11,676 bases of DNA from a virus (Duplodnaviria; Heunggongvirae; Uroviricota; Caudoviricetes): IMG/VR virus record IMGVR_UViG_2740892036_000002. The stretch is one strand, 5' to 3'. The position numbers and the translations under genes are program-made. The first letter of the stretch is position 1. Each line of letters opens with the position of its first letter. Below the pieces are notes generated by a model, which was given only the letters and a program-made list of their open reading frames with translations, was not told where the DNA came from and did not search any database. Shown piece by piece: positions 1 to 11,676 of this stretch.

Positions 1-233
1 TCCGCATCACTGGTGGAAATGGAGGCGACGGTCAGTCCGGAAATATCAGCGTCAGCGGTGAAGGCGGAACATCGTACTGGGGTGGCGGTGGACGCGCAGG
101 CGCTGGCGGTGGCGTTAGCGGTAAGGCATATGGTTCAGGCGGAGGTGGTGCATACGATGCCGGTTATAGCGGAACCAGTATGACGGGCGGGAAAGGCGCT
201 GCAGGGATTTGTATTATCGAGGAGTTTGCATAA
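1..233 (+). CDS. Tail fibre protein, C-terminal fragment (5' end outside window), glycine-rich
   Basis: Open frame from the window edge (codons from nt 3) to TAA at 231-233, translating ...GGNGGDGQSGNISVSGEGGTSYWGGGGRAGAGGGVSGKAYGSGGGGAYDAGYSGTSMTGGKGAAGICIIEEFA*. It sits directly upstream of a tail-fibre assembly chaperone gene, with stop and start overlapping (TAATG). Gly-rich C-termini are typical of phage fibre distal domains. Assignment is by position and composition only. Confidence 0.5.
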   Translation, partial: RITGGNGGDGQSGNISVSGEGGTSYWGGGGRAGAGGGVSGKAYGSGGGGAYDAGYSGTSMTGGKGAAGICIIEEFA

Positions 234-646
234 TGAATGCGTCATATGCAGTTATTGAAAATGGGATGGTTGTGAATGTCATTGTCTGGGATGGTGAGGA
301 TGAATTCACTGTGCCGGATAATCTGCAGCTCATTAATATTTCTGATATCAGTGAGCAGCCCGGAATCGGCTGGGCGTATTCAGACGGGGTATTTACTGCG
401 CCGCTCCCTCCGGAACGTTCTCATGATGAACTGGTAGCTGACGCTGAACAGAAAAAACAGTCGCTGATAGACGCAGCAATGGTCAATATCAGCGTGATTC
501 AGTTAAAGCTGCAGGCCGGGCGCAAACTGACGCAAGAGGAAACTACCCGACTTAACGTTGTGCTGGATTATATCGAGGCTGTGACGGCAACAAATACCAG
601 CACCGCACCTGATATTATTTGGCCTGTTTTCCCTGCAAGCAGATAA
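233..646 (+). CDS. Tail fibre assembly chaperone (Tfa / gpG-like)
   Basis: 137-aa ORF starting at the ATG at 233, which overlaps the upstream stop. The C-terminal region (...LTQEETTRLNVVLDYIEAVTATNTSTAPDIIWPVFP) matches the conserved C-terminal motif of Caudovirales tail-fibre assembly proteins (...APDIeWP...). The upstream ATG at 209 given in the ORF track would run through the preceding gene's stop and is unlikely. Confidence 0.65.
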   Translation: MNASYAVIENGMVVNVIVWDGEDEFTVPDNLQLINISDISEQPGIGWAYSDGVFTAPLPPERSHDELVADAEQKKQSLIDAAMVNISVIQLKLQAGRKLTQEETTRLNVVLDYIEAVTATNTSTAPDIIWPVFPASR

Positions 647-657
647 ATACCGTCATT

Positions 658-677
658 TTGTGTGAATAACGGTACAA
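658..677 (+). promoter_or_regulatory. Candidate Ogr-dependent late promoter element (TTGT-N12-ACAA dyad) upstream of the sheath operon
   Basis: TTGT (658-661), a 12-nt spacer, then ACAA (674-677). P2-family late promoters carry a TGT-N12-ACA dyad centred near -55. Here the dyad centre is about 85 bp upstream of the FI start codon, in the only intergenic gap (647-752) ahead of the FI-FII-E-T-U-D operon. Confidence 0.4.
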
Positions 678-752
678 CTGCGCTTAGCTGCTTGTCAGAC
701 ACAATCACTTCAACATAGGGCGAAGCCTAATCCAATCAGGAGGTTCGCCACT

Positions 753-1925
753 ATGGCTCAGGATTACCACCACGGAGTGCGCGTTGTTGAAGTCAACGAA
801 GGCACTCGATCCATTACCACGGTGAGCACCGCCATCGTGGGCATGGTCTGCACGGGCGATGATGCCGATGCAAAAATGTTCCCTCTTAATAAACCCGTGC
901 TGATCACTGATGTGCTTACTGCCAGCGGTAAGGCGGGTGAATCCGGTACGCTGGCCCGTTCGCTGGATGCCATCGCTGACCAGGCAAAACCCGTGACCGT
1001 TGTTGTGCGTGTGCCGCAGGGTGAAACGGAAGAAGAAACCACGACCAATATCATCGGCGCAGTGACTGCTGAAGGTAAAAAAACTGGTATGAAAGCCCTG
1101 TTATCTGCCCAGTCACAGCTCGGTGTTAAACCGCGCATTCTCGGCGTGCCGGGGCACGATAATAAAGCCGTTGCTACTGAGTTGCTGGGCGTGGCGCAAA
1201 GCCTGCGTGGGTTTGCTTACCTGTCAGCGTATGGCTGCAAGACGGTGCAGGAGGCGATCACTTACCGTAAAAACTTCAGTCAGCGTGAAGGGATGCTGAT
1301 TTGGCCTGACTTTACTGGCTGGGACACGGTGCTGAATGCCGACGCAACGGCATATGCCACCGCCCGTGCGCTTGGTCTGCGTGCCAAAATTGATGAGCAG
1401 ACAGGGTGGCACAAAAGCCTGTCCAACGTGGGCGTGAACGGTGTCACCGGAATTTCTGCTGATGTGTTCTGGGATCTGCAGGACCCGGCAACTGATGCGG
1501 GACTGCTTAACCAGAACGATGTTACCACACTTATCCGCAAAGACGGCTTTCGCTTCTGGGGTTCCCGCTGTCTGAGTGATGACCCACTCTTTGCCTTTGA
1601 AAACTACACCCGCACGGCGCAGGTGCTGATGGACACGATGGCAGAAGCGCCAATGTGGGCGGTCGACAAACCGCTGAATCCGTCGCTGGCCCGCGACATT
1701 ATCGAAGGTATCCGCGCCAAAATGCGCAGCCTGATCAGTCAGGGCTATCTCATTGGTGGCGATTGCTGGCTGGATGAGTCGGTGAACGACAAAGACACTC
1801 TGAAAGCTGGAAAACTCACCATCGACTACGACTACACACCAGTGCCGCCACTTGAAAACCTGATGCTGCGTCAGCGCATCACCGATCAGTACCTGGTGAA
1901 TTTCGCCAGCCAGGTCAGCGCGTAA
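753..1925 (+). CDS. FI: Contractile tail sheath protein (P2 gpFI family)
   Basis: 390-aa ORF with a strong Shine-Dalgarno (CAGGAGG, 737-743) 9 nt before the ATG. Size (P2 FI is about 396 aa), N-terminus [14 protein letters not shown]... and position immediately before the tube gene fit P2-type sheath proteins. Confidence 0.93.
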
Positions 1926-1934
1926 GGGGACAAC

Positions 1935-2450
1935 ATGGCTTTACCACGCAAATTAAAACACCTCAACCTGTTTAACGACGGGAACAACTGGCAGGGGATC
2001 GTTGAGTCGCTGACGCTGCCGAAATTTACCCGCAAATATGAGAAGTATCGCGGCGGCGGAATGCCGGGAGCAGTGGATGTGGATCTGGGGCTTGATGACA
2101 GTGCGCTGGACACAGAATTTTCCATTGGTGGTACTGAACTGCTGCTGTTTAAGCAGATGGGCAAAGCCACGGTGGATGGCATCCAGTTGCGCTTTACCGG
2201 CTCTATCCAGCGTGATGATACCGGGGAAGTGCAGGCCGTGGAGCTTGTGGTGCGTGGACGTCACAAAGAAGTGGATTCCGGCGAGTGGAAGACGGGCGAA
2301 AGCAACACCACCAAAGTGACCAGTACCAACAGCTACGCGAAGCTGACTATCAATGGTGAGGTGCTCTATGAAGTGGACCTTATCAACATGGTGGAAATTG
2401 TGGACGGTGTGGACCTGATGGAAGCGCACCGCAACGCCCTCGGCCTCTGA
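1935..2450 (+). CDS. FII: Tail tube protein (P2 gpFII family)
   Basis: 171-aa ORF starting 9 nt after the FI stop. Size (P2 FII is about 172 aa) and its place in the sheath-tube-E-T order fit a myovirus tube protein. Confidence 0.92.
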   Translation: MALPRKLKHLNLFNDGNNWQGIVESLTLPKFTRKYEKYRGGGMPGAVDVDLGLDDSALDTEFSIGGTELLLFKQMGKATVDGIQLRFTGSIQRDDTGEVQAVELVVRGRHKEVDSGEWKTGESNTTKVTSTNSYAKLTINGEVLYEVDLINMVEIVDGVDLMEAHRNALGL

Positions 2451-2504
2451 TGTATCTGAACGGCGCGGAATGCCGCGCCAGAACCTAATTTACAGGACAG
2501 CAAA

Positions 2505-2807
2505 ATGAGCGATAAGCAGACTGAAAAGACCATTCAACTGGATACCCCCATCATGCGTGGTAAAACTGAAATCACCGAAATTGTGCTGCGTAAACCGCAG
2601 TCCGGTGCGCTGCGCGGTACACGCCTGCAGGCCATTATGGATATGGATGTGAACGCGATGATGACCGTGATCCCCCGCATCTCCAGCCCGGCGCTGACTG
2701 CACAGGAAATTGCAGAGATGGACCCGGCAGATCTCACTGCCATGTCGGTTGAGGTTGTCACTTTTTTGTTGAAGAAGTCGGTGCTTGCCGGTTTACCGAC
2801 AGCCTGA
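2505..2807 (+). CDS. E: Tail assembly chaperone gpE (zero-frame product)
   Basis: 100-aa ORF between the tube and tape-measure genes, preceded by AGGA. It contains the slippery heptamer T-TTT-TTG at 2762-2768 near its 3' end. Confidence 0.85.
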   Translation: MSDKQTEKTIQLDTPIMRGKTEITEIVLRKPQSGALRGTRLQAIMDMDVNAMMTVIPRISSPALTAQEIAEMDPADLTAMSVEVVTFLLKKSVLAGLPTA

Positions 2808-2941
2808 CGGTTGATGATCTGGTGGCAGATATCGCCACCATTTTTCACTGGCCGCCATCCGTTACTGACGTTATGCCGCTGACCGAAGTGCTGGAATGGC
2901 GGTATAAAGCGATTCAGAGAAGCGGGGCCAACGATGAGTGA
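2505..2941 (+). CDS. E': Tail assembly chaperone gpE+E' fusion made by -1 programmed ribosomal frameshift at 2762-2768
   Basis: After a -1 slip on T_TTT_TTG (zero-frame codons ACT|TTT|TTG) the -1 frame stays open for 58 more codons (FVEEVGACRFTDSLTVDDLVADIATIFHWPPSVTDVMPLTEVLEWRYKAIQRSGANDE*) and stops at TGA 2939-2941, overlapping the T start at 2934. The predicted product is about 145 aa (P2 E+E' is about 142 aa). This is the conserved G/GT-type chaperone frameshift found in front of tape-measure genes. Confidence 0.75.
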
Positions 2942-5900
2942 TAATAACCTGCGCCTGCAGGTCATTCTTAATGCGGTTGACAAACTCACCCGCCCATTCC
3001 GTGCTGCACAGGCCAGTTCGAAAGAGCTGGCTGGCGCAATCAGAAACTCCCGTGACGCATTAAAGCAACTCAATCAGGCGGGTAACAACCTGGAAAAATT
3101 TCGCAAGCTGCAGGCCGATAACAAAAAGTTAGGCGACAGGCTGAACTATGCCAGACAGAAGGCAAATTTGCTTAGTTCTGAGCTGGAAGCGATGGAACAA
3201 CCATCACAAAGGCATCTTGTGGCTTTAGGTCGGCAAACGCTGGCAGTCCAACGCCTGGAAGAACAACAAAAATATTTGCAGAAGCAAACGGCGCTTGTGC
3301 GTGCAGAACTGTACCGGGCGGGAATTTCTGCGAAAGATGATGCGGGAGCAACTGCCCGTTTAGCCCGTGAAACATCACGTTATAACCAGGAATTGTCGAA
3401 ACAGGAGGCGCGGCTGAAGCGACTGGGGGAAGCTCAGCGCAGGATGAATGCAGCGCGTGCCAGTTATGCCCGTTCGCTGGAGGTGCGCGATCGCATCGCA
3501 GGAGCCGGAGCCACTACTACGGCTGCAGGGCTGGCAATGGGGACGCCAGTGATGGCGGCAGTAAAAAGCTATACCAGCATGGAAGATGCCATGAAAGGTG
3601 TGGCAAAGCAGGTCAATGGTCTGCGTGACGATAATGGCATCCGCACTGCACGTTTTTATGAAATGCAGGATGCCATCAAAGCTGCCAGCGAACAGTTGCC
3701 GATGGAAAACGGTGCGGTGGACTTCGCTGCACTGGTTGAAGGTGGTGCGCGTATGAACGTCGCAAACCCTGACGACAGCTGGGAAGACCAGAAACGTGAC
3801 CTGCTGGCCTTCGCCAGTACGGCAGCAAAGGCGGCAACAGCCTTTGAGCTGCCAGCGGATGAACTGTCAGAAAGTCTGGGGAAAATCGCCCAGCTCTACA
3901 AAATACCAACCCGCAATATTGAACAGCTCGGCGATGCGCTGAACTATCTGGATGATAACGCCATGTCGAAAGGGGCGGACATCATTGATGTGATGCAACG
4001 TCTGGGCGGTGTGGCTGACCGTCTGGATTATCGTAAAGCGGCGGCACTGGGTTCCACCTTTCTGACACTGGGCGCTGCGCCGGAGGTTGCAGCCAGTGCA
4101 GCAAACGCGATGGTGCGTGAATTGTCCATTGCCACCATGCAAAGCAAGAGTTTCTTTGAAGGAATGAATCTGCTGAAACTCAATCCTGAAGTGATTGAAA
4201 AGCAGATGACGAAGGATGCGATGGGAACTATCCAGCGCGTGCTGGAGAAGGTGAACGCACTGCCGCAGGACAAGCGTCTGTCTGCCATGACCATGTTGTT
4301 TGGTAAAGAGTTTGGCGATGACGCGGCGAAACTGGCAAACAACCTGCCGGAACTGCAGCGTCAGTTAAAACTGACAGCGGGCAATGATGCGCTCGGCTCC
4401 ATGCAGAAAGAATCCGACATTAACAAGGATTCACTTTCTGCGCAGTGGTTGCTGGTCAAAACCGGAGCGCAGAACACCTTCAGCAGCCTGGGCGAAACGC
4501 TGCGCCAGCCGCTGATGGATATTCTGTACACGGTGAAAAGCGTCACGGGGGCGTTGCGTCGCTGGGTGGAAGCTAACCCGGAACTGACAGGCACACTGAT
4601 GAAAGCATCGGCTGTTGTGGCTGCGGTGACCGTCGGCCTCGGCACCTTAGCGGTGGCGCTGGCTGCAGTGCTGGGGCCGCTGGCAGTGATCCGTCTGGGA
4701 TTCTCTGTGCTGGGTATCAAAACGTTACCTTCCGTTACGGCAGCAGTAACTCGAACCAGCAGCGCGTTGTCCTGGCTGGCTGGCGCACCACTGGTACTGC
4801 TGCGACGCGGGCTTGCTTCATCGGGCAACGCTGCGGGTTTACTTACTGCACCGTTGTCATCTTTGCGCCGCACGGCATCACTGACGGGAAATGTCCTGAA
4901 AACTGTAGCAGGTGCGCCGGTTGCACTTTTGCGGTCTGGATTATCCGGTTTACGTGCTGTTGCTGTGATGTTTATGAATCCTCTGGCGGTACTGCGCGGT
5001 GGACTGGTCGCCGCAGGCACGGTGCTGCGAGTACTGGCATCTGGTCCACTGGCGATGCTGCGCGTTGCCCTGTATGCCGTATCTGGTCTGTTAGGTGCTC
5101 TGCTCAGTCCGATAGGTCTTGTGGTTACTGCACTGGCGGGCGTGGCGCTGGTTGTCTGGAAATACTGGCAACCCATCACCGCATTTCTTGGTGGCGTGGT
5201 GGAAGGATTCAAAGCGGCGGCAGGTCCCGTCAGTGCAGCATTCGAACCGCTTAAGCCCGTGTTCCAGTGGATTGGCGACAAAGTACAGGCGCTGTGGGGC
5301 TGGTTTACTGATCTGCTGACGCCCGTTAAGTCGACCTCTGCCGAACTGCAGAGTGCAGCGGCAATGGGGCGGCGATTCGGGGAGGCACTGGCGGAAGGGC
5401 TGAATATGGTCATGCATCCGCTGGACTCCCTGAAATCCGGCGTTTCCTGGTTGCTGGAGAAGCTCGGCATTGTCAGTAAAGAGGCCGCAAAGGCAAAACT
5501 GCCGGAAAGCGTGACGCGTCAGCAACCTGCGACGGTGAATGCAGACGGTAAAGTGATGATGCCATCGGGTGGTTTTCCATCATGGGGATATGGCTTTGCG
5601 GGGATGTATGACAGCGGCGGCTATATCCCGCGCGGGCAGTTTGGCATCGTCGGTGAAAACGGGCCGGAAATTGTTAACGGCCCGGCAAATGTGACCAGCC
5701 GGAGAAATACAGCTGCACTGGCTGCCGTTGTTGCCGGAATGATGGGCGTTGCTGCCGCGCCTGCAGAGCTTCCACCGTTGCACCCTTTGGCACTTCCCGC
5801 GAAAGGCGGCGAAGCGATGGTGAGTCGTGCAGCCACTGTGCCGCCCGTTCAACGGATTGAGGCACCGATGCAGATCATCATTCAGACGCAGCCAGGACAA

Positions 5901-6011
5901 AGTGCGCAGGATATTGCGCGGGAGGTGGCCCGCCAGCTTGATGAACGTGAACGCAGGCTGAAGGCAAAAGCCAGGAGTAACTACAGCGATCAGGGGGGAT
6001 ACGACGCATGA
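2934..6011 (+). CDS. T: Tail tape measure protein (P2 gpT family)
   Basis: 1025-aa ORF immediately after the E/E' chaperone pair. It has a coiled-coil-like, charged N-terminal third, a central hydrophobic block with tandem roughly 22-aa repeats, and a Gly-rich C-terminal region. Position and architecture are diagnostic for a tape measure. Confidence 0.93.
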   Translation: MSDNNLRLQVILNAVDKLTRPFRAAQASSKELAGAIRNSRDALKQLNQAGNNLEKFRKLQADNKKLGDRLNYARQKANLLSSELEAMEQPSQRHLVALGRQTLAVQRLEEQQKYLQKQTALVRAELYRAGISAKDDAGATARLARETSRYNQELSKQEARLKRLGEAQRRMNAARASYARSLEVRDRIAGAGATTTAAGLAMGTPVMAAVKSYTSMEDAMKGVAKQVNGLRDDNGIRTARFYEMQDAIKAASEQLPMENGAVDFAALVEGGARMNVANPDDSWEDQKRDLLAFASTAAKAATAFELPADELSESLGKIAQLYKIPTRNIEQLGDALNYLDDNAMSKGADIIDVMQRLGGVADRLDYRKAAALGSTFLTLGAAPEVAASAANAMVRELSIATMQSKSFFEGMNLLKLNPEVIEKQMTKDAMGTIQRVLEKVNALPQDKRLSAMTMLFGKEFGDDAAKLANNLPELQRQLKLTAGNDALGSMQKESDINKDSLSAQWLLVKTGAQNTFSSLGETLRQPLMDILYTVKSVTGALRRWVEANPELTGTLMKASAVVAAVTVGLGTLAVALAAVLGPLAVIRLGFSVLGIKTLPSVTAAVTRTSSALSWLAGAPLVLLRRGLASSGNAAGLLTAPLSSLRRTASLTGNVLKTVAGAPVALLRSGLSGLRAVAVMFMNPLAVLRGGLVAAGTVLRVLASGPLAMLRVALYAVSGLLGALLSPIGLVVTALAGVALVVWKYWQPITAFLGGVVEGFKAAAGPVSAAFEPLKPVFQWIGDKVQALWGWFTDLLTPVKSTSAELQSAAAMGRRFGEALAEGLNMVMHPLDSLKSGVSWLLEKLGIVSKEAAKAKLPESVTRQQPATVNADGKVMMPSGGFPSWGYGFAGMYDSGGYIPRGQFGIVGENGPEIVNGPANVTSRRNTAALAAVVAGMMGVAAAPAELPPLHPLALPAKGGEAMVSRAATVPPVQRIEAPMQIIIQTQPGQSAQDIAREVARQLDERERRLKAKARSNYSDQGGYDA
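4785..5160 (+). repeat. Tandem degenerate ~22-codon repeats inside the tape measure gene (APLxxLRxGL...)
   Basis: The translation shows five to six successive units: APLVLLRRGLASSGNAAGLLT / APLSSLRRTASLTGNVLKTVAG / APVALLRSGLSGLRAVAVMFMN / PLAVLRGGLVAAGTVLRVLASG / PLAMLRVALYAVSGLLGALLS / PIGLVVTALAGVALVV. They are diverged at the nucleotide level. Boundaries are approximate. Confidence 0.6.
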
Positions 6012-6493
6012 TGATGGTGCTGGGATTGTACGTGTTTATGCTGCGCACCGTGCCGTATCAGGAACTGCAGTATCAACGCAGTTGGCGACATGCGGCAAAC
6101 AGCCGGGTAAACCGTCGTCCGTCCACGCAGTTTCTGGGACCGGAAAACGACATGCTGACGCTTTCCGGTGTTCTTATGCCGGAGATAACAGGCGGCAGGC
6201 TGTCGTTGCTGGCACTTGAGCAGATGGCAGAACAGGGGAAAGCATGGCCTCTGATTGAAGGCAGCGGCACGATTTACGGCATGTATGTGATTGAGGGACT
6301 GAATCAGACTAAAACGGAGTTTTTCCGCGACGGTATGCCGCGCCGGATTGAGTTCACCCTGTCGCTCAAACGGGTGGATGAATCCCTGTCCGATATGTTC
6401 GGTGATCTCAGTGCGCAGCTGAATAATCTGCAGGGAACGGCAACATCTGCCTTAAGCGATATCAGTAAAACGGTGGGAGGGCTTCTGTCGTGA
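6008..6493 (+). CDS. U: Tail protein gpU
   Basis: 161-aa ORF whose ATG overlaps the T stop (ATGA at 6008-6011). Size (P2 gpU is about 159 aa) and position after T fit gpU. Confidence 0.88.
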   Translation: MMMVLGLYVFMLRTVPYQELQYQRSWRHAANSRVNRRPSTQFLGPENDMLTLSGVLMPEITGGRLSLLALEQMAEQGKAWPLIEGSGTIYGMYVIEGLNQTKTEFFRDGMPRRIEFTLSLKRVDESLSDMFGDLSAQLNNLQGTATSALSDISKTVGGLLS

Positions 6494-7590
6494 ATTTCAG
6501 CTCTGAACTGCTTAACAAAGGCAACAAAACTCCCGCATTCAGCATCAGTATTGAGGGCAGGGATATCACCACTGTGCTGGACAACCGCCTGATTGGGCTG
6601 ACGCTGACGGATAACCGGGGATTTGAAGCGGACCAGCTTGATCTGGAACTCGACGACGCCGATGGAAAAATCGTGCTGCCGCGCCGTGGTGCGGTCATTA
6701 CGCTGGCGCTGGGCTGGAAGGGGCAGCCGCTTTTCCCGAAAGGGGCATTCACGGTGGACGAGATTGAACACACTGGCGCACCGGACCGCCTGACTATCCG
6801 GGCGCGAAGTGCTGATTTTCGGGAAACCCTGAATACCCGCCGTGAAAAATCGTGGCATAACACCACCATCGGGGAAGTGGTGAAGGAAATAGCCGCGCGG
6901 CACAAGCTGAAGATGGCACTGGGTAAAGAGCTGTCGGATAAGCCCGTGGAGCATATAGACCAGACTAATGAGAGTGACGGCAGTTTTCTGATGCGACTGG
7001 CGCGACAGTACGGTGCCATCGCGTCGGTGAAAAATGGCAATCTGTTATTCATCCGGCAGGGGCAGGGCAAAAGCGCCACTGGTAAACCACTGCCAGTGAT
7101 CACTATCACACGCAAGGACGGCGACAGTCACCGATTTACCCTGGCAGATCGCGGAGCCTACACGGGCGTAATTGCCAGCTGGTTGCATACCCGTGAACCC
7201 GCGAAGAAAGAAAGCACCACGGTGAAGCGTAAGCGCAGAACTAAGAAGCAGAAGAAAGAGCCGGAAGCGAAGCAGGGCGATTACCTGGTGGGTACGGATG
7301 AAAACGTGCTGGTACTTAATCGCACCTATGCCAACCGGGGCAACGCTGAACGGGCAGCGAAAATGCAGTGGGAACGTCTGCAACGCGGCGTTGCGTCATT
7401 CTCGCTACAACTGGCGGAAGGGCGGGCAGATCTCTACACGGAAATGCCTGTGAAGGTCAGTGGTTTTAAACAGCCGATAGATGATGCGGAATGGACCATT
7501 ACGACTCTGACACATACCGTCAGCCCGGATAACGGTTTTACGACCAGTCTGGAGCTTGAAGTGAGGATTGATGATTTCGAAATGGAATGA
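6490..7590 (+). CDS. D: Tail protein gpD (late tail gene D)
   Basis: 366-aa ORF with a GTG start overlapping the U stop (GTGA at 6490-6493), preceded by GGGAGGG at 6475-6481. It is the last tail gene before ogr, as in P2, and has a basic K/R-rich stretch (KRKRRTKKQKKEPEAK). Confidence 0.88.
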   Translation: MNFSSELLNKGNKTPAFSISIEGRDITTVLDNRLIGLTLTDNRGFEADQLDLELDDADGKIVLPRRGAVITLALGWKGQPLFPKGAFTVDEIEHTGAPDRLTIRARSADFRETLNTRREKSWHNTTIGEVVKEIAARHKLKMALGKELSDKPVEHIDQTNESDGSFLMRLARQYGAIASVKNGNLLFIRQGQGKSATGKPLPVITITRKDGDSHRFTLADRGAYTGVIASWLHTREPAKKESTTVKRKRRTKKQKKEPEAKQGDYLVGTDENVLVLNRTYANRGNAERAAKMQWERLQRGVASFSLQLAEGRADLYTEMPVKVSGFKQPIDDAEWTITTLTHTVSPDNGFTTSLELEVRIDDFEME

Positions 7591-7680
7591 TGCTTCGCAA
7601 TGGAGAACTTTTAAGTTTGCAAAATGGAATAATGCGGTATCATTATTGTGAATTTAGCAAAAATGGGGAGAACTCGAAAA

Positions 7681-7899
7681 ATGATGATTTGCCCACTGTG
7701 TGGAAGTGCCGCCCATACTCGCAGCAGTTTTCAGGTATCTTCATTGACCAAAGAGCGTTACAACCAGTGCCAGAACATTAACTGCAGCCATACTTTTGTT
7801 ACCCATGAAACTTTTGTTCGTTCGATTGCAACGCCAAAAGAGTCAAATCCGGTTCAGCCGCATCCAATGAAATCAGGACAGGTGGCGCTCTCTCTTTGA
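7681..7899 (+). CDS. ogr: Ogr/Delta-family zinc-finger late transcription activator
   Basis: 72-aa product from the ATG at 7681, with GGGGAG 10 nt upstream. It carries the C-X2-C-X22-C-X4-C motif (CPLCGSAAH...QCQNINCSHTF) characteristic of P2 Ogr, and 72 aa is the P2 Ogr length. The ORF track's longer version (7648) adds 11 N-terminal residues and cannot be excluded. Confidence 0.85.
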   Translation: MMICPLCGSAAHTRSSFQVSSLTKERYNQCQNINCSHTFVTHETFVRSIATPKESNPVQPHPMKSGQVALSL

Positions 7900-7985
7900 C
7901 GCTGCCGCCATTTTGTCGCCATCGTTAAAAAACAGTGCTTCTAACATCATGATTTTAAACAGCTTAAATTTCAGGCAACAAAAAA

Positions 7986-8022
7986 CCCATCAACCTTGAA
8001 CCGAAATGGCGGGGTTGATGGG
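7986..8022 (-). terminator. Candidate intrinsic terminator for ybjL, in the prophage-host junction
   Basis: Perfect 10-bp inverted repeat CCCATCAACC (7986-7995) / GGTTGATGGG (8013-8022) with a 17-nt loop. On the - strand it is followed directly by a T-rich tract (complement of CAACAAAAAA, 7976-7985). It lies 113 nt downstream of the ybjL stop. Confidence 0.4.
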
Positions 8023-8134
8023 CTCCACAAAATGGGGACATCAAAGAAAAGCAGTGGCACTAATTAAGACTGATGCCCTGCGGAAAAGTTCTGCGGTTGT
8101 GCAAAAAAATTTCATTTTCAGGGCAACTTCAGTT

Positions 8135-9820
8135 TTATCCTAATCCTGGCCATACCATGACGATGATTGTCCCTGCCAGCGTCAGCAGGACGTTGGCGAT
8201 TGCGTAGGTGCCCGCATAGCCCAGCGCAGGGATGTTACTGCGAGCTGTATCACTGATGATCTCCATTGCCGGCGCGCAGGTGCGTGCGCCCATCATTGCG
8301 CCGAACAACAGTGCGCGGTTCATTCGCAATACATAAGCACCGAACAAGAAACAGATAACCACGGGCACAAGACTGACAATTAATCCGGCAATCAACATCT
8401 GACCGCCAATCGCGCCCAGGCCGTTATTAATACCGCTACCGGCGCTCAGACCAACGCCTGCCATAAACACCATCAAGCCGAACTCTTTCACCATGCTTAA
8501 TGCACCTTGCGGAATGTAACCGAAGGTCGGGTGGTTAGCACGCATAAAGCCCAGCATAATTCCGGCGAATAACAACCCGGCAGCGTTCCCCATGCCGAAA
8601 CTGAATGTGCTGAACTGGAAGGTGATCATCCCGATCATCAGCCCAATAACAAAGAAGGCGCAAAATGCCAGCAGGTCAGTGACCTGGCTGTGAATCGAGA
8701 TAAAGCCGATGCGATCGGCGATGGTTTTTACGCGACGGGCATCACCGCTGACTTGTAAAACGTCACCTTTGTTAAGCACGACGTTGTCATCTATCGGCAT
8801 CTCAATCTGGCTACGAATGACGCGGTTAAGGAAGCAACCGTGATCGGTCAACTTCAGTTGTGCGAGACGTTTACCTACAGCGTTATGGTTTTTAACGACC
8901 ACTTCTTCAGTGACGATACGCATGTCGAGAAGGTCACGATCGAAAACTTCTTTACCGTTACGGAAGCTGGGATCGAGTCGGGCATGGGCGTCGGGATAGC
9001 CTACCAACGCTATTTCATCGCCCATTTGTAGCACGGCATCACCGTCTGGATTTGCCAGAATCCCGTTACGTCGAATACGTTCAATGTAGCAGCCGGTTTG
9101 TCGATAAATACCCAGTTCACGCAGATTTTTGCCGTCGGTCCAGGCCACCAGCTCCGGGCCGACGCGATAGGCGCGGATCACCGGTAAATAAACCTTACGG
9201 TTGGCATCAGTGTCCAGGCCACGTTCGCGGGCGATTTGCTGGGCGCTGGTCTGTAAGTCCTGATGCTGCAATTTCGGCAAGTAACGCGCACCAACAATCA
9301 AACTCACCAGACCGATTAAATAGGTTAAGGCATACCCGAGGCTCAGATTATCCAGTGCCAGTGAGAGCTGCCTGCTTTCCATGCCGAAATGACGCAGTGT
9401 ATCGCCAGCACCGACCAGAACCGGTGTCGACGTCATAGAGCCTGCTAACATACCGGCCGTCAGGCCAATATCCCAGCCAAACAGCTTACCTAACCCTAAG
9501 GCGATCACCAGCGCACTGCCAACCATCACCAGTGCTAACATTAGGTAATTTTTCCCATCGCGAAAAAAAATGGAAAAAAAGTTCGGTCCGGCTTCGACCC
9601 CGACGCAGAAAATAAACAGCATAAAGCCAAGATTAAGCGCATCGGTGTTAATGCTGAAATGTTGTTGGCCTAATAACAGCGATACGACTAAAACGCCAAT
9701 GGAATTACCCAGTTGGATCGAACCAAGTCGTAACTTTCCGAGACATAGCCCAAGCGCGAGGACCACAAATAATAACAGAATGTAATTCCCATTTAACAAT
9801 TCGGCGACGTTTATATTCAC
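8135..9820 (-). CDS. ybjL: Putative transport protein YbjL (AAE / YidE-YbjL family, two internal TrkA-C-type domains)
   Basis: 561-aa ORF with a GTG start. The translation ([34 protein letters not shown]...VMVWPGLG) is recognised as E. coli YbjL: hydrophobic N- and C-terminal membrane halves around a soluble central region. Confidence 0.93.
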
Positions 9821-10089
9821 GGAGGCTAACTTCTTGTTTACTAGTAAGCTGTTGAAAGAAATGGTAATTTACGATAATGTTTTTTACCAGAATTCAGGGC
9901 GCAGATTCATTCAGCGCACCTAAACGATAGTAAAGTAACAATATATTTTACTAGTGTAATCACATTAGGTATCAACGGCTATATGAATTGCGTTGGCCTA
10001 TATTAGCATGGAATGCGAAGCGGCTTTATCTTACTGAACGCCACACTGGCGAAAAATGTGTTCGATAGACGCAGTGTCAGGAGGAACGA

Positions 10090-10467
10090 GTGAAACATAA
10101 ACAACGTTGGGCGGGGGCAATCTGCTGTTTTGTCCTCTTCATTGTGGTGTGCCTTTTTCTGGCGACGCACATGAAAGGCGCTTTTCGGGCTGCCGGGCAT
10201 CCTGAAATCGGCTTGCTATTTTTCATTCTTCCTGGAGCAGTTGCCAGTTTCTTTTCACAGCGTAGAGAAGTCCTGAAACCTCTATTTGGCGCAATGCTGG
10301 CGGCACCCTGTTCAATGCTCATTATGCGGCTGTTTTTTTCACCGACGCGCTCATTCTGGCAAGAGCTGGCATGGTTACTAAGCGCGGTGTTCTGGTGTGC
10401 GCTGGGGGCACTGTGTTTCTTATTTATCAGTAGTTTGTTTAAACCACAGCACAGAAAAAATCAGTAA
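10090..10467 (+). CDS. ybjM: Inner membrane protein YbjM
   Basis: 125-aa hydrophobic ORF with a GTG start, preceded by AGGAGG at 10077-10082, divergent from ybjL. Gene order ybjL-ybjM-grxA-ybjC-nfsA matches the E. coli K-12 locus. Confidence 0.85.
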   Translation: MKHKQRWAGAICCFVLFIVVCLFLATHMKGAFRAAGHPEIGLLFFILPGAVASFFSQRREVLKPLFGAMLAAPCSMLIMRLFFSPTRSFWQELAWLLSAVFWCALGALCFLFISSLFKPQHRKNQ

Positions 10468-10487
10468 AGCCCTCAACGCGAGGGCTT
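10467..10487. terminator. Stem-loop between convergent ybjM and grxA (possible bidirectional terminator)
   Basis: AAGCCCTC (10467-10474) / GAGGGCTT (10480-10487) with a 5-nt loop, overlapping the ybjM stop codon and 10 nt beyond the grxA stop. The flanking U-tracts are weak on both strands. Confidence 0.35.
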
Positions 10488-10496
10488 GTCAGACGA

Positions 10497-10754
10497 TCAG
10501 GCGTCCAGATTTTCTTTCACCCATGCAGCAAAATCGGTATAGCCGCCGATATGTTGCTGATCGACAAAAATCTGCGGCACGGTTTCTACGGGTTTACCTG
10601 CCTTTTGTTGTAGATCTTCTTTAGTGATCCCTTCCGCACGAATATCTACATACTGATACTGAAAATCATCGCGTTCATTGCTCAATTTCTCAGCCAGATC
10701 TTTTGCACGCACACAGTAAGGGCAACCCGAACGACCAAAAATAACGGTTTGCAT
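10497..10754 (-). CDS. grxA: Glutaredoxin 1
   Basis: 85-aa product from the ATG at 10752-10754 (- strand), with AGGAG 8 nt upstream. It has the CPYC active site (MQTVIFGRSGCPYCVRAKDLAEK...) and is recognised as E. coli Grx1. The ORF track's start at 10769 adds MRREI and lies within the Shine-Dalgarno, so it is unlikely. Confidence 0.93.
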   Translation of the reverse strand: MQTVIFGRSGCPYCVRAKDLAEKLSNERDDFQYQYVDIRAEGITKEDLQQKAGKPVETVPQIFVDQQHIGGYTDFAAWVKENLDA

Positions 10755-10913
10755 TATTTCTCTCCTCATAGATTTATGCCTGTAATGATCACGCTAAAAT
10801 GTATTCGCTGAAAGTAGGTTTAACCTGTTGCATTAATTGCTAAAAGCTATAACTGTTAAACACAATACAGTGAAAAGTTTTAGACTGAAGGCTCACTTTG
10901 CAGAGGGAAGCGT

Positions 10914-11201
10914 ATGCGCGCGATCGGTAAATTGCCTAAAGGCGTGTTGATACTGGAATTTATCGGAATGATGCTACTGGCGGTGGCGCTGCTGTCGGTA
11001 AGCGACTCCCTGTCGCTGCCTGAGCCATTTTCTCGGCCAGAAGTGCAGATTCTGATGATTTTTCTCGGTGTTTTGCTCATGCTTCCCGCTGCGGTGGTGG
11101 TTATTCTTCAGGTGGCAAAACGTCTTGCCCCACAGCTGATGAACCGTCCACCGCAATATTCACGTTCAGAAAGAGAAAAAGATAATGACGCCAACCATTG
11201 A
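10914..11201 (+). CDS. ybjC: Small membrane protein YbjC (DUF1418 family)
   Basis: 95-aa ORF with two hydrophobic segments, preceded by GAGGGA. It lies immediately upstream of nfsA and overlaps it by 17 nt, as in the E. coli ybjC-nfsA-rimK operon. Confidence 0.85.
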   Translation: MRAIGKLPKGVLILEFIGMMLLAVALLSVSDSLSLPEPFSRPEVQILMIFLGVLLMLPAAVVVILQVAKRLAPQLMNRPPQYSRSEREKDNDANH

Positions 11202-11604
11202 ACTTATTTGTGGCCATCGCTCCATTCGCCATTTCACTGATGAACCCATTTCCGAAGCGCAGCGTGAGGCGATTATTAACAGCGCCCGTGCGACGTCCAG
11301 TTCCAGTTTTTTGCAGTGCAGTAGCATTATTCGCATTACCGACAAAGCGTTACGTGAAGAACTGGTGACGCTGACCGGCGGGCAAAAACACGTAGCGCAA
11401 GCGGCGGAGTTCTGGGTGTTCTGTGCCGACTTTAACCGCCATTTACAGATCTGTCCGGATGCTCAGCTCGGCCTGGCGGAACAACTGTTGCTCGGTGTCG
11501 TTGATACGGCAATGATGGCGCAGAATGCATTAATCGCAGCGGAATCGCTGGGATTGGGCGGGGTATATATCGGCGGCCTGCGCAATAATATTGAAGCGGT
11601 GACG
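11185..11604 (+). pseudogene. nfsA: Oxygen-insensitive NADPH nitroreductase NfsA, interrupted after codon 140 by an IS1 insertion
   Basis: The ATG at 11185 opens MTPTIELICGHRSIRHFTDEPISEAQREAIINSARATSSSSFLQCSSIIRITDKALREELVTLTGGQKHVAQAAEFWVFCADFNRHLQICPDAQLGLAEQLLLGVVDTAMMAQNALIAAESLGLGGVYIGGLRNNIEAVT, recognised as the N-terminal 140 residues of E. coli NfsA (240 aa). From 11605 the sequence is an IS1 terminal repeat and the reading frame continues into IS-derived residues (GSDSNLLIVFYVQIMPDDLVMQLH). Confidence 0.85.
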
Positions 11605-11676
11605 GGTAGTGACTCCAACTTACTGATAGTGTTTTATGTTCAGATAATGCCCGATGACCTTGTCATGCAGCTCCAC
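11605..11676. mobile_element. IS1-family insertion sequence, terminal inverted repeat and adjacent end (element continues beyond window)
   Basis: GGTAGTGACTCCAACTTACTGATAGTGTTTTATGTTCAGATAATGCCCGATGACCTTGTCATGCAGCTCCAC matches the IS1 terminal sequence as I recall it (GGTAATGACTCCAACTTATTGATAGTGTTTTATGTTCAGATAATGCCCGATGACTTTGTCATGCAGCTCCAC) with 3 mismatches in 72 nt. I take this to be the insB-proximal end, which would put insAB on the - strand beyond the window. Confidence 0.85.

What the first reader, a model, noticed from the sequence alone, without database searches (positions are those of the whole stretch)
11185..11676. IS1 insertion truncates the nitroreductase gene nfsA at codon 140
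The nfsA frame is intact for 140 codons and then runs straight into an IS1 terminal inverted repeat at 11605. NfsA is the major oxygen-insensitive nitroreductase that activates nitrofurans, and its loss is the classic first step to nitrofurantoin/nitrofurazone resistance. The insertion should also affect expression of the downstream rimK-ybjN part of the operon, either by polarity or through IS1 outward transcription. This is a concrete, phenotype-predicting lesion rather than a new system.
Basis: partly seen in the sequence, partly recalled or inferred. Interest (0 to 1): 0.65.

Follow-up and report, generated by a model that had tools for sequence, protein, structure and literature searches.

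The report
IS1 insertion knocks out nfsA
The E. coli nitroreductase gene nfsA is cut after codon 140 by an IS1-family insertion sequence, a real but already published first-step nitrofurantoin-resistance lesion carried by an ST58-related lineage.

Summary
Window 11185-11604 is nfsA codons 1-140, identical to solved E. coli NfsA. From 11605 the sequence is the right inverted-repeat end of an IS1-family element, oriented opposite to nfsA. It matches K-12 IS1A at 69 of 72 bases.

The same junction occurs at 100% identity in 23 of 5,426 complete E. coli genomes. One is ST58 strain EC0880B, where interruption of nfsA by IS1X2 at this position is published, with a nitrofurantoin MIC of 64 mg/L and heteroresistance. 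The junction is therefore not an assembly chimera, and the finding is already known.

The window ends 72 bases into the IS, so the far side is unseen. Relatives show three states:
nfsA resumes after it.
- 6 genomes have lost nfsA nt 421-713 next to the IS, so nfsA does not resume.
- 1 genome has a deletion on the other side that removes nfsA 5', ybjC and the start of grxA.

Which state the window's genome has cannot be told. Effects on rimK-ybjN are untested, and a simple scan found no outward promoter.

In passing: IS1 has hit this same nucleotide independently in an avian O1:K1:H7 strain, and two more hits lie within 25 nt.

The parts
10914..11201 (+). ybjC (DUF1418), first gene of the ybjC-nfsA-rimK-ybjN operon; its 3' end overlaps the nfsA start
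   Evidence: Pfam PF07214, E=1.6e-42. Annotated ybjC in the matching genomes. The operon is as curated in PMC4207228.
11185..11604 (+). nfsA 5' fragment, codons 1-140 (nt 1-420), now a pseudogene
   Evidence: Translation. It is 140/140 identical to NfsA, PDB 1F5V. The PF00881 domain is truncated. PGAP annotates the fragment as 'nitroreductase NfsA, incomplete, missing C-terminus' in relatives.
11597..11604 (.). IS1 target site CGGTGACG (nfsA nt 413-420), the left copy of the 8-bp target-site duplication seen in relatives
   Evidence: In D5 the same 8 bp recur directly after the IS1 IRL end. Wan et al. give EC0880B nfsA as '1:421int413:723'.
11605..11676 (-). First 72 nt of an IS1-family element (IS1X2-like), entered through its IRR end. 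The terminal inverted repeat starts at 11605. About 11620-11676 is the 3' end of the insB reading frame on the minus strand. The window ends inside the element.
   Evidence: 69/72 to K-12 IS1A and 72/72 to the 768-bp copy in Ec1115, F437 and others. The transposase CDS on the minus strand starts 15 nt inside the IS end in relatives. The element is named IS1X2 for EC0880B in PMC10569738.
11185..11676 (+). Predicted fusion reading frame: NfsA 1-140 plus an IS-encoded tail (GSDSNLLIVFYVQIMPDDLVMQLH...). In relatives the tail ends 2 codons past the window (..RF*), giving 166 aa.
   Evidence: Translations of the window and of Ec1115.

Best explanation
The window holds the left junction of a 768-bp IS1-family element (IS1X2-like, about 94% identical to IS1A). 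It transposed into nfsA after nt 420, in the orientation opposite to nfsA, and duplicated the 8-bp target CGGTGACG. This allele is inherited within an ST58-related phylogroup-B1 lineage. It is the one already described in bloodstream isolate EC0880B.

Shown: the junction, the identity of both halves, the orientation, and the occurrence of the identical junction, with an IS copy identical in the six relatives compared base by base, in independent complete genomes.

Inferred:
- The gene product is a 166-aa NfsA(1-140)-IS fusion. It lacks the excursion domain (residues 165-210) and the ligand and NADPH-binding residues Lys167, Tyr200, Arg203, Arg208 and Arg225, so it is inactive.
- The cell therefore activates nitrofurans only through NfsB. 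This gives a first-step ('pre-resistant') rise in MIC, and a second hit in nfsB would give full resistance.
- rimK-ybjN are cut off from the SoxS-regulated ybjC promoter.

Unknown from the window: whether the IS is followed by the rest of nfsA (form i) or by the IS1-adjacent deletion of nfsA nt 421-713 (form ii).
For: - Sequence and translation.
- NfsA 1-140 is identical to PDB 1F5V, and the Pfam domain is truncated.
- The IS1 end matches IS1A at 69/72 and the lineage copy at 72/72.
- The identical 277-bp junction is in 23 of 5,426 complete genomes.
- Seventeen of them match the whole nfsA::IS1 locus in one piece.
- The IS copy is 768/768 identical in six lineage genomes, and D5 carries one extra C.
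- The backbone at 7965-11604 shows 0 differences to D5, Ec1115, F437, EcPF20 and C51, against 9 differences to the non-lineage strain 98208.
- EC0880B is ST58, its nfsA is interrupted by IS1X2 at nt 413-421, and its MIC is 64 mg/L with heteroresistance.
- STN0717-20 is the closest relative of an ST58 isolate.
- The residues lost are described in PMC8286842.
- The operon structure is given in PMC4207228.
Against: - Only 72 nt of the IS lie in the window, so the completeness of the element, the duplication and the downstream state are taken from relatives, not observed.
- No phenotype, nfsB status or sequence type can be read from the window.
- The window's P2-like prophage differs by 1-2% from those of the lineage genomes and is identical to that of strain 98208, which has a different nfsA lesion. 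The lineage assignment therefore rests on about 3.6 kb of backbone plus the IS variant.
- The same site has been hit independently in another lineage, so site identity alone does not prove common descent.
Confidence: 0.93

Rival explanations
1. The window's genome carries the derived form (ii), not a simple insertion. After the original insertion, an IS1-mediated adjacent deletion removed the right-hand duplication copy and nfsA nt 421-713. The IS1 IRL end now abuts the last 10 nt of nfsA, 70 nt upstream of rimK, and codons 141-240 do not resume.
For: Six of the 23 genomes with this junction have exactly this structure with identical breakpoints: Ec1115, F437, CFS3313, EcPF20, C51 and Eco_70239. 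The two IS1-bearing genomes most similar to the whole window, F437 at 99.0% and Ec1115 at 98.9%, are both of this form. Ec1115 is the only genome with 0 mismatches over 7900-11676. All six carry a P2-like prophage next to ybjL, as the window does.
Against: Seventeen of 23 genomes have the simple insertion, which is about 12 of 18 after collapsing the four EC0880B derivatives and the three near-identical pig isolates. No backbone SNP in the window separates the two forms. EcPF20, also form ii, is only 98.0% identical over the window.
Confidence: 0.33
2. The junction is an assembly artefact, with a contig wrongly joined to, or ended in, a collapsed IS1 repeat, and nfsA is intact in the real genome.
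For: The window stops 72 nt into a multi-copy repeat, as short-read contigs typically do. A metagenome contig with the same left junction (L010) has a right-hand flank that belongs to a common plasmid IS1 copy, so such chimeras do occur.
Against: The identical junction is present in 23 independently assembled complete chromosomes from different laboratories, hosts and countries. It was reported for EC0880B from both short-read and hybrid assemblies. A chimera would not reproduce the same nucleotide, orientation and IS variant.
Confidence: 0.02
3. The window's allele arose by an independent IS1 insertion at a hot spot and was not inherited from the ST58-related lineage.
For: APEC O1:K1:H7 strains E16002 and E18006 carry a different IS1 variant at the very same nucleotide, with the same 8-bp duplication and orientation, in a divergent backbone. 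Two further IS1 insertions lie after nt 398 and nt 445.
Against: The window's 72 IS bases match the lineage copy 72/72 but differ at 3 positions from the IS1A-like or IS1B-like copies used in the independent events. Its backbone is identical to the lineage genomes over about 3.6 kb.
Confidence: 0.05
4. The lesion is a largely neutral passenger mutation of the clone. It is real, but it was not selected by nitrofurans and has little clinical effect on its own.
For: Loss of nfsA alone is reported to give MIC <=32 mg/L, below the breakpoint (PMC10569738; 'pre-resistant' in PMC12554031). The carriers come from dogs, pigs, cattle, a turkey, lettuce, a street pavement and humans, with no obvious link to nitrofurantoin use.
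Against: nfsA is hit repeatedly and independently in E. coli genomes: IS1 at three nearby sites and IS4 in strain 98208. EC0880B with this allele had MIC 64 mg/L and yielded resistant subpopulations by IS1X2-mediated nfsB deletion. Past veterinary nitrofuran use has been proposed as the selector of such clones.
Confidence: 0.3

Closest known systems
nfsA::IS1X2 allele of E. coli ST58 bloodstream isolate EC0880B (Wan et al. 2021, PMC8767348; Wan et al. 2023, PMC10569738)
   Same: Same gene, same nucleotide position (reported as nfsA '1:421int413:723'), same IS variant and same orientation. The four EC0880B-derived complete genomes match the window junction at 100%.
   Different: The window's P2-like prophage next to ybjL is not the same variant. 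EC0880B was not among the 40 best whole-window matches. The state to the right of the IS is unknown for the window.
Other IS-mediated nfsA and nfsB knock-outs in nitrofuran-resistant E. coli, for example IS1R between nfsA nt 693 and 694 in IN01 and IN02, and an IS10R-like element in nfsB (PMC8767348)
   Same: Same mechanism: insertional inactivation of an oxygen-insensitive nitroreductase by an IS1-family element with a short target duplication, as a first step in stepwise nitrofuran resistance.
   Different: Different insertion site, a 9-bp duplication there against 8 bp here, and IS1R rather than an IS1X2-like copy.
Nitrofurantoin 'pre-resistant' E. coli clones across one-health compartments (Sealey et al. 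2025, PMC12554031)
   Same: A clone-wide inherited nfsA loss-of-function allele found in animals, food and humans in several countries. ST58 is listed there among the STs with nfsA mutants.
   Different: That paper's text and the one supplementary file held as text do not mention this IS1 allele. Its worked examples are frameshift and stop alleles in ST665, ST919/8874, ST69 and ST752.
IS1-mediated adjacent deletions (abortive or intramolecular transposition; IS1X2-driven nfsB and capsule-locus deletions in EC0880B, PMC10569738)
   Same: Forms (ii) and (iii) of the locus keep the IS end intact and lose the DNA directly next to it, as in the published IS1X2 deletions.
   Different: Here the deletions are small (301 bp and 881 bp), lie at the nfsA copy itself, and are fixed in natural isolates rather than selected in the laboratory.

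Membership tests
IS1 family insertion sequence (IS1X2-like) | Terminal inverted repeat of IS1 (GGTxxTGxxxCCAACTTAxTGAT) at the boundary | tested here: met
   Window 11605-11627 reads GGTAGTGACTCCAACTTACTGAT. Over 72 nt it matches K-12 IS1A IRR at 69/72 and the complete copies in relatives at 72/72.
IS1 family insertion sequence (IS1X2-like) | Element of about 768 bp encoding InsA and InsAB' through a programmed -1 frameshift | not testable with these tools
   The window holds only 72 nt of the element. In relatives with the identical junction the element is 768 bp and PGAP annotates 'IS1 family transposase, programmed frameshift'. It is 723/768 identical to IS1A.
IS1 family insertion sequence (IS1X2-like) | Short (8-9 bp) direct duplication of the target | not testable with these tools
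   The right end lies outside the window. In D5 and the other form (i) genomes the 8-bp CGGTGACG is duplicated. It is lost in form (ii).
IS1 family insertion sequence (IS1X2-like) | Assignment to the ISfinder entry IS1X2 | not tested
   No ISfinder reference was available here. The name is taken from PMC10569738, which reports 96-98% identity of the EC0880B copies to IS1X2.
NfsA, oxygen-insensitive NADPH nitroreductase (Pfam PF00881, NfsA subfamily) | Sequence identity to E. coli NfsA | tested here: met
   Residues 1-140 are identical to PDB 1F5V chain A (window translation).
NfsA, oxygen-insensitive NADPH nitroreductase (Pfam PF00881, NfsA subfamily) | Complete 240-residue subunit with the excursion domain (165-210) and Lys167, Tyr200, Arg203, Arg208, Arg225 | tested here: not met
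   The frame leaves nfsA after residue 140 and ends 26 IS-encoded residues later. The residues and domain are as described in PMC8286842. It is a pseudogene, not a functional member.
First-step ('pre-resistance') nitrofuran resistance allele | Loss of function of nfsA with raised nitrofurantoin MIC | not testable with these tools
   Loss of function is inferred from the truncation. The MIC is known only for EC0880B with the same allele: 64 mg/L, and 256* with heteroresistant colonies in the earlier test.
First-step ('pre-resistance') nitrofuran resistance allele | nfsB, ribE and oqxAB status, which decides between pre-resistant and resistant | not testable with these tools
   These loci are not in the window.
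ST58-related lineage carrying nfsA::IS1X2 | Same site, same IS variant and same backbone as known members | tested here: met
   The junction is 100% identical in 23 genomes. There are 0 backbone differences over 7965-11604 to five of them. EC0880B is ST58, and STN0717-20 is the nearest relative of an ST58 isolate.
ST58-related lineage carrying nfsA::IS1X2 | MLST profile ST58 for the source genome and for all 23 carriers | not tested
   The MLST loci are not in the window, and the sequence types of the other carriers were not found in the papers searched.

The most novel reading that the evidence does not exclude
The nt-420 nfsA::IS1X2 allele marks an internationally spread, multi-host ST58-related clone that is one mutation from nitrofurantoin resistance. 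Carriers include humans, dogs, pigs, cattle, a turkey, salad and a street surface. They come from the UK, Germany, France, USA, Russia, Tunisia and Japan. The clone keeps remodelling the locus by IS1-adjacent deletions, giving three structural forms. In addition, nfsA nt ~390-445 is an orientation-biased IS1 hot spot, with four independent insertions, two of them at the same nucleotide. As far as the papers searched show, neither the clone-level spread of this allele nor the hot spot has been described.
Probability: 0.45. Interest if true: 0.3.

Novelty: already known. Interest (0 to 1): 0.15.

Why it matters
NfsA is the main activator of nitrofurantoin. Strains that have already lost it need only one more event, loss of nfsB, to become clinically resistant. 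In EC0880B that event is itself driven by the same IS1X2 element, at frequencies around 1e-6. Recognising this allele in a genome flags a 'pre-resistant' isolate. Short-read pipelines can miss this, because the gene simply runs off a contig end. Scientifically it adds nothing new in kind: insertional inactivation of nfsA by IS1 is textbook, and this exact allele is published.

Tried and rejected
- Assembly chimera: rejected, because the junction recurs in 23 complete genomes.
- Telling form (i) from form (ii) by SNPs in the window: not possible. The backbone is identical to members of both forms, and the prophage part differs from all of them.
- Outward or hybrid promoter from the IS1 IRL end towards rimK: a simple sigma-70 scan of Ec1115 found only the inward IS1 promoter on the minus strand and nothing on the plus strand between the IS end and rimK. 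This is weak negative evidence only.
- Counting form (ii) genomes with a junction query: the ranking put two-piece matches first, so it was uninformative. I resolved it by fetching each locus.
- Sequence types of the other carriers: papers naming Ec1115 and CFS3313 give no ST for them. Only EC0880B (ST58) and STN0717-20 (nearest relative of an ST58 strain) could be tied to ST58.
- Looking for this allele in the 'pre-resistant clones' paper: no hit in its text or in the one supplement held as text.
- Scan of GTDB species-representative genomes for the junction: no hit.
- Metagenome scan: one 1.35-kb contig has the left junction, but its right flank is a common plasmid IS1 flank. It is probably a repeat-collapse chimera and says nothing about the right side.
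- No protein-database, structure-prediction or RNA searches were needed.

Full report
**1. The observation**

The last 492 bases of the window were read and translated.
- An ATG at 11185, overlapping the end of ybjC (10914-11201), opens a frame that encodes NfsA.
- The first 140 residues are identical to the solved E. coli enzyme, PDB 1F5V.
- Pfam sees a nitroreductase domain that stops at profile position 144 of 167.
- Wild-type nfsA continues ...GCGGTGACG|AAACTGCTT.
- In the window, GTGACG at 11599-11604 is followed instead by GGTAGTGACTCCAACTTACTGATAGTG..., the right inverted-repeat (IRR) end of IS1.
- Over the 72 bases available it matches K-12 IS1A at 69/72.

The IRR end faces the 5' part of nfsA, so the transposase genes lie on the minus strand, opposite to nfsA.

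**2. The junction is real and has been seen before**

A 277-base query across the junction finds it at 100% identity in 23 of 5,426 complete E. coli genomes. PGAP annotates a split nfsA and an 'IS1 family transposase' in each. Hosts and sources include humans, dogs, pigs, cattle, a turkey, lettuce and a street pavement.

This rules out an assembly chimera.

Four of the 23 records are derivatives of EC0880B, an ST58 bloodstream isolate.
- Wan et al. list its nfsA as '1:421int413:723' (PMC8767348).
- They later state that nfsA is interrupted by the IS1-family element IS1X2 at that same location. The nitrofurantoin MIC is 64 mg/L, and resistant subpopulations arise by IS1X2-associated deletion of nfsB (PMC10569738).
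- Another carrier, STN0717-20, is the closest relative (ANI 99.93) of an ST58 sepsis isolate.

The exact allele is therefore already published.

**3. What lies beyond the window end**

In strain D5 the element is complete.
- It is followed by a second copy of CGGTGACG, nfsA nt 413-420.
- After that come the rest of nfsA, rimK and ybjN.

Seventeen genomes match this whole locus in one piece. I call this form (i).

Six genomes differ: Ec1115, F437, CFS3313, EcPF20, C51 and Eco_70239.
- The IS1 IRL end is joined directly to GACGCGCTAA, the last 10 nt of nfsA, 70 nt upstream of the rimK start.
- nfsA nt 421-713 and the right-hand duplication copy have been lost, 301 bp in all.

I call this form (ii).

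One further genome, WP5-W18-ESBL-11, keeps the right junction. On the left it has lost 881 bp: nfsA 1-420, ybjC and the start of grxA, equivalent to window 10724-11604. I call this form (iii).

The IS copy is 768/768 identical in the six form (ii) and (iii) genomes compared. D5 has one extra C in a C-run and is annotated as frameshifted.

This pattern fits one ancestral insertion followed by IS1-mediated adjacent deletions. That behaviour is already documented for IS1X2 in EC0880B.

**4. Which form the window has**

This cannot be decided.
- From 7965 to 11604 the window has no differences to D5 (form i) or to Ec1115, F437, EcPF20 and C51 (form ii). It has one difference to Eco_70239.
- The non-lineage strain 98208 differs at 9 positions there.
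- The two IS1-bearing genomes most like the whole window are both form (ii), but the differences lie in the prophage, which varies independently.

I put form (i) at roughly 0.6 and form (ii) at roughly 0.33.

**5. Mechanism and consequences**

Shown: the gene is split, and the reading frame runs 26 codons into the IS and stops (..MQLHRF*). This would give a 166-aa product.

Inferred: that product cannot be active.
- It lacks the excursion domain (residues 165-210).
- It lacks Lys167, Tyr200, Arg203, Arg208 and Arg225. These form the nitrofurantoin and NADPH-phosphate binding sites (PMC8286842).
- Loss of NfsA leaves NfsB as the only activator of nitrofurans.
- According to the literature this alone gives MIC <=32 mg/L, a 'pre-resistant' state. 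EC0880B itself measured 64 mg/L.

The four genes ybjC-nfsA-rimK-ybjN are curated as one SoxS-activated operon (PMC4207228), so the IS separates rimK-ybjN from that promoter. Whether this lowers or raises their expression is untested. A consensus scan finds the inward IS1 promoter in IRL on the minus strand but no plus-strand promoter-like site between the IS end and rimK.

**6. Comparison with what is known, and novelty**

This is a member of a well-known kind: IS1 knock-outs of nfsA as the first step to nitrofuran resistance (PMC8767348 and references therein). It is the same allele as in EC0880B. Novelty is 'already known' and interest is low.

The only points I did not find in the papers searched are three:
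- The allele is shared by a multi-host, multi-country set of complete genomes.
- It exists in three structural forms.
- The site is used recurrently (next section).

**7. Things seen in passing**

- **IS1 hot spot.** APEC O1:K1:H7 strains E16002 and E18006 carry an IS1B-like copy after the very same nucleotide. That copy has 46 differences from the lineage copy and 7 from IS1A. It has the same 8-bp duplication and orientation. It sits in a backbone that differs from the window at 28 of 1,920 positions, so it is an independent event. STK78-E has IS1 after nt 398 (duplication GGCCTGCG). WS3294A has IS1 after nt 445 (duplication CGCAGCATG). Both are in the same orientation. The sites flank the AT-rich AATAATATTGAA.
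- **IS4 in strain 98208.** Its P2-like prophage is identical to the window's over 1-7900. It has IS4 in nfsA after nt 618 instead.
- **Prophage.** Window 1-7964 is the tail end of a P2-like prophage, abutting ybjL: sheath, tube, E/E', a 1,025-aa tape measure, gpU, gpD and ogr. Lineage genomes without this prophage start matching at window 7965.
- **Mosaic IS.** The IS copy is 90.7% identical to IS1A in the IRR-proximal 450 nt and 99.1% in the remaining 318 nt.
- **Metagenome contig.** A contig with the same left junction has a plasmid-type IS1 right flank and is probably a repeat-collapse chimera.

**8. Verdict**

The finding is correct, precise and phenotype-relevant, but ordinary and already described. 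What the window cannot show is the right-hand side of the IS. Relatives warn that the 3' part of nfsA may be gone.

Noticed in passing
L011 1501-2999 (APEC E16002); L012 (STK78-E); L013 (WS3294A); equivalent to window 11575-11604 and beyond: IS1 has hit nfsA independently at the very same nucleotide (after nt 420, same 8-bp duplication, same orientation). The second event is in O1:K1:H7 avian strains with a different IS1 variant and a divergent backbone. Two more IS1 insertions lie after nt 398 and nt 445, also in the same orientation. This suggests a local, orientation-biased IS1 hot spot next to AATAATATTGAA.
   Followed up: partly
L003 7180-7260, L004, L007-L009 (Ec1115, F437, EcPF20, C51, Eco_70239; also CFS3313): Six carriers of the same junction have lost nfsA nt 421-713 plus the right duplication copy, 301 bp in all. 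The IS1 IRL end sits 70 nt upstream of rimK. The breakpoints are identical in all six, so this is one inherited IS1-adjacent deletion.
   Followed up: yes
L006 4350-5140 (WP5-W18-ESBL-11, Japan); equivalent to window 10724-11604: The same IS copy with the right junction intact but an 881-bp deletion on the left. It removes nfsA 1-420, ybjC, the grxA-ybjC intergenic region and the first 31 nt of grxA, which is re-annotated as a shorter GrxA-family gene.
   Followed up: partly
L005 11185-13345 (strain 98208, Egypt): The strain whose P2-like prophage is identical to the window's over 1-7900 has nfsA broken by IS4 after nt 618 instead of by IS1. Its backbone differs from the window at 9 positions in ybjL-ybjM. 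The same prophage variant therefore sits in two different backbones, each with its own nfsA knock-out.
   Followed up: partly
window 1-7964: Right-hand end of a P2-like prophage: a tail-fibre assembly remnant at about 317-634, sheath 753-1925, tube 1935-2450, gpE/E' 2505-2941, tape measure 2934-6011, gpU 6008-6493, gpD 6490-7590 and ogr 7681-7899. It abuts ybjL. Lineage genomes without this prophage start matching at 7965, so the attachment-site boundary is near 7964/7965. The prophage differs by 1-2% among carriers of the nfsA::IS1 allele, with differences clustered in the tape-measure, gpU and gpD genes.
   Followed up: partly
L003 6421-7188 against L002 97-864: The IS1 copy in nfsA is a mosaic relative to K-12 IS1A. 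It is 408/450 identical in the IRR/insB-proximal part and 315/318 in the IRL/insA-proximal part, 723/768 overall.
   Followed up: no
L001 4206-4974 (strain D5): D5's copy of the element is 769 bp, with one extra C in a C-run, and is annotated 'frameshifted'. All other copies examined are 768 bp. It could be a sequencing error or a genuinely dead copy.
   Followed up: no
L010 1-1351 (metagenome contig ERZ1106919 NODE-22567, coverage 4.7): This contig holds the identical nfsA-IS1 left junction. Its right-hand IS flank matches an IS1 flank common on large E. coli plasmids, so it is probably a chimera formed through the repeat. It illustrates why the far side of the IS cannot be trusted in short-read assemblies.
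   Followed up: yes
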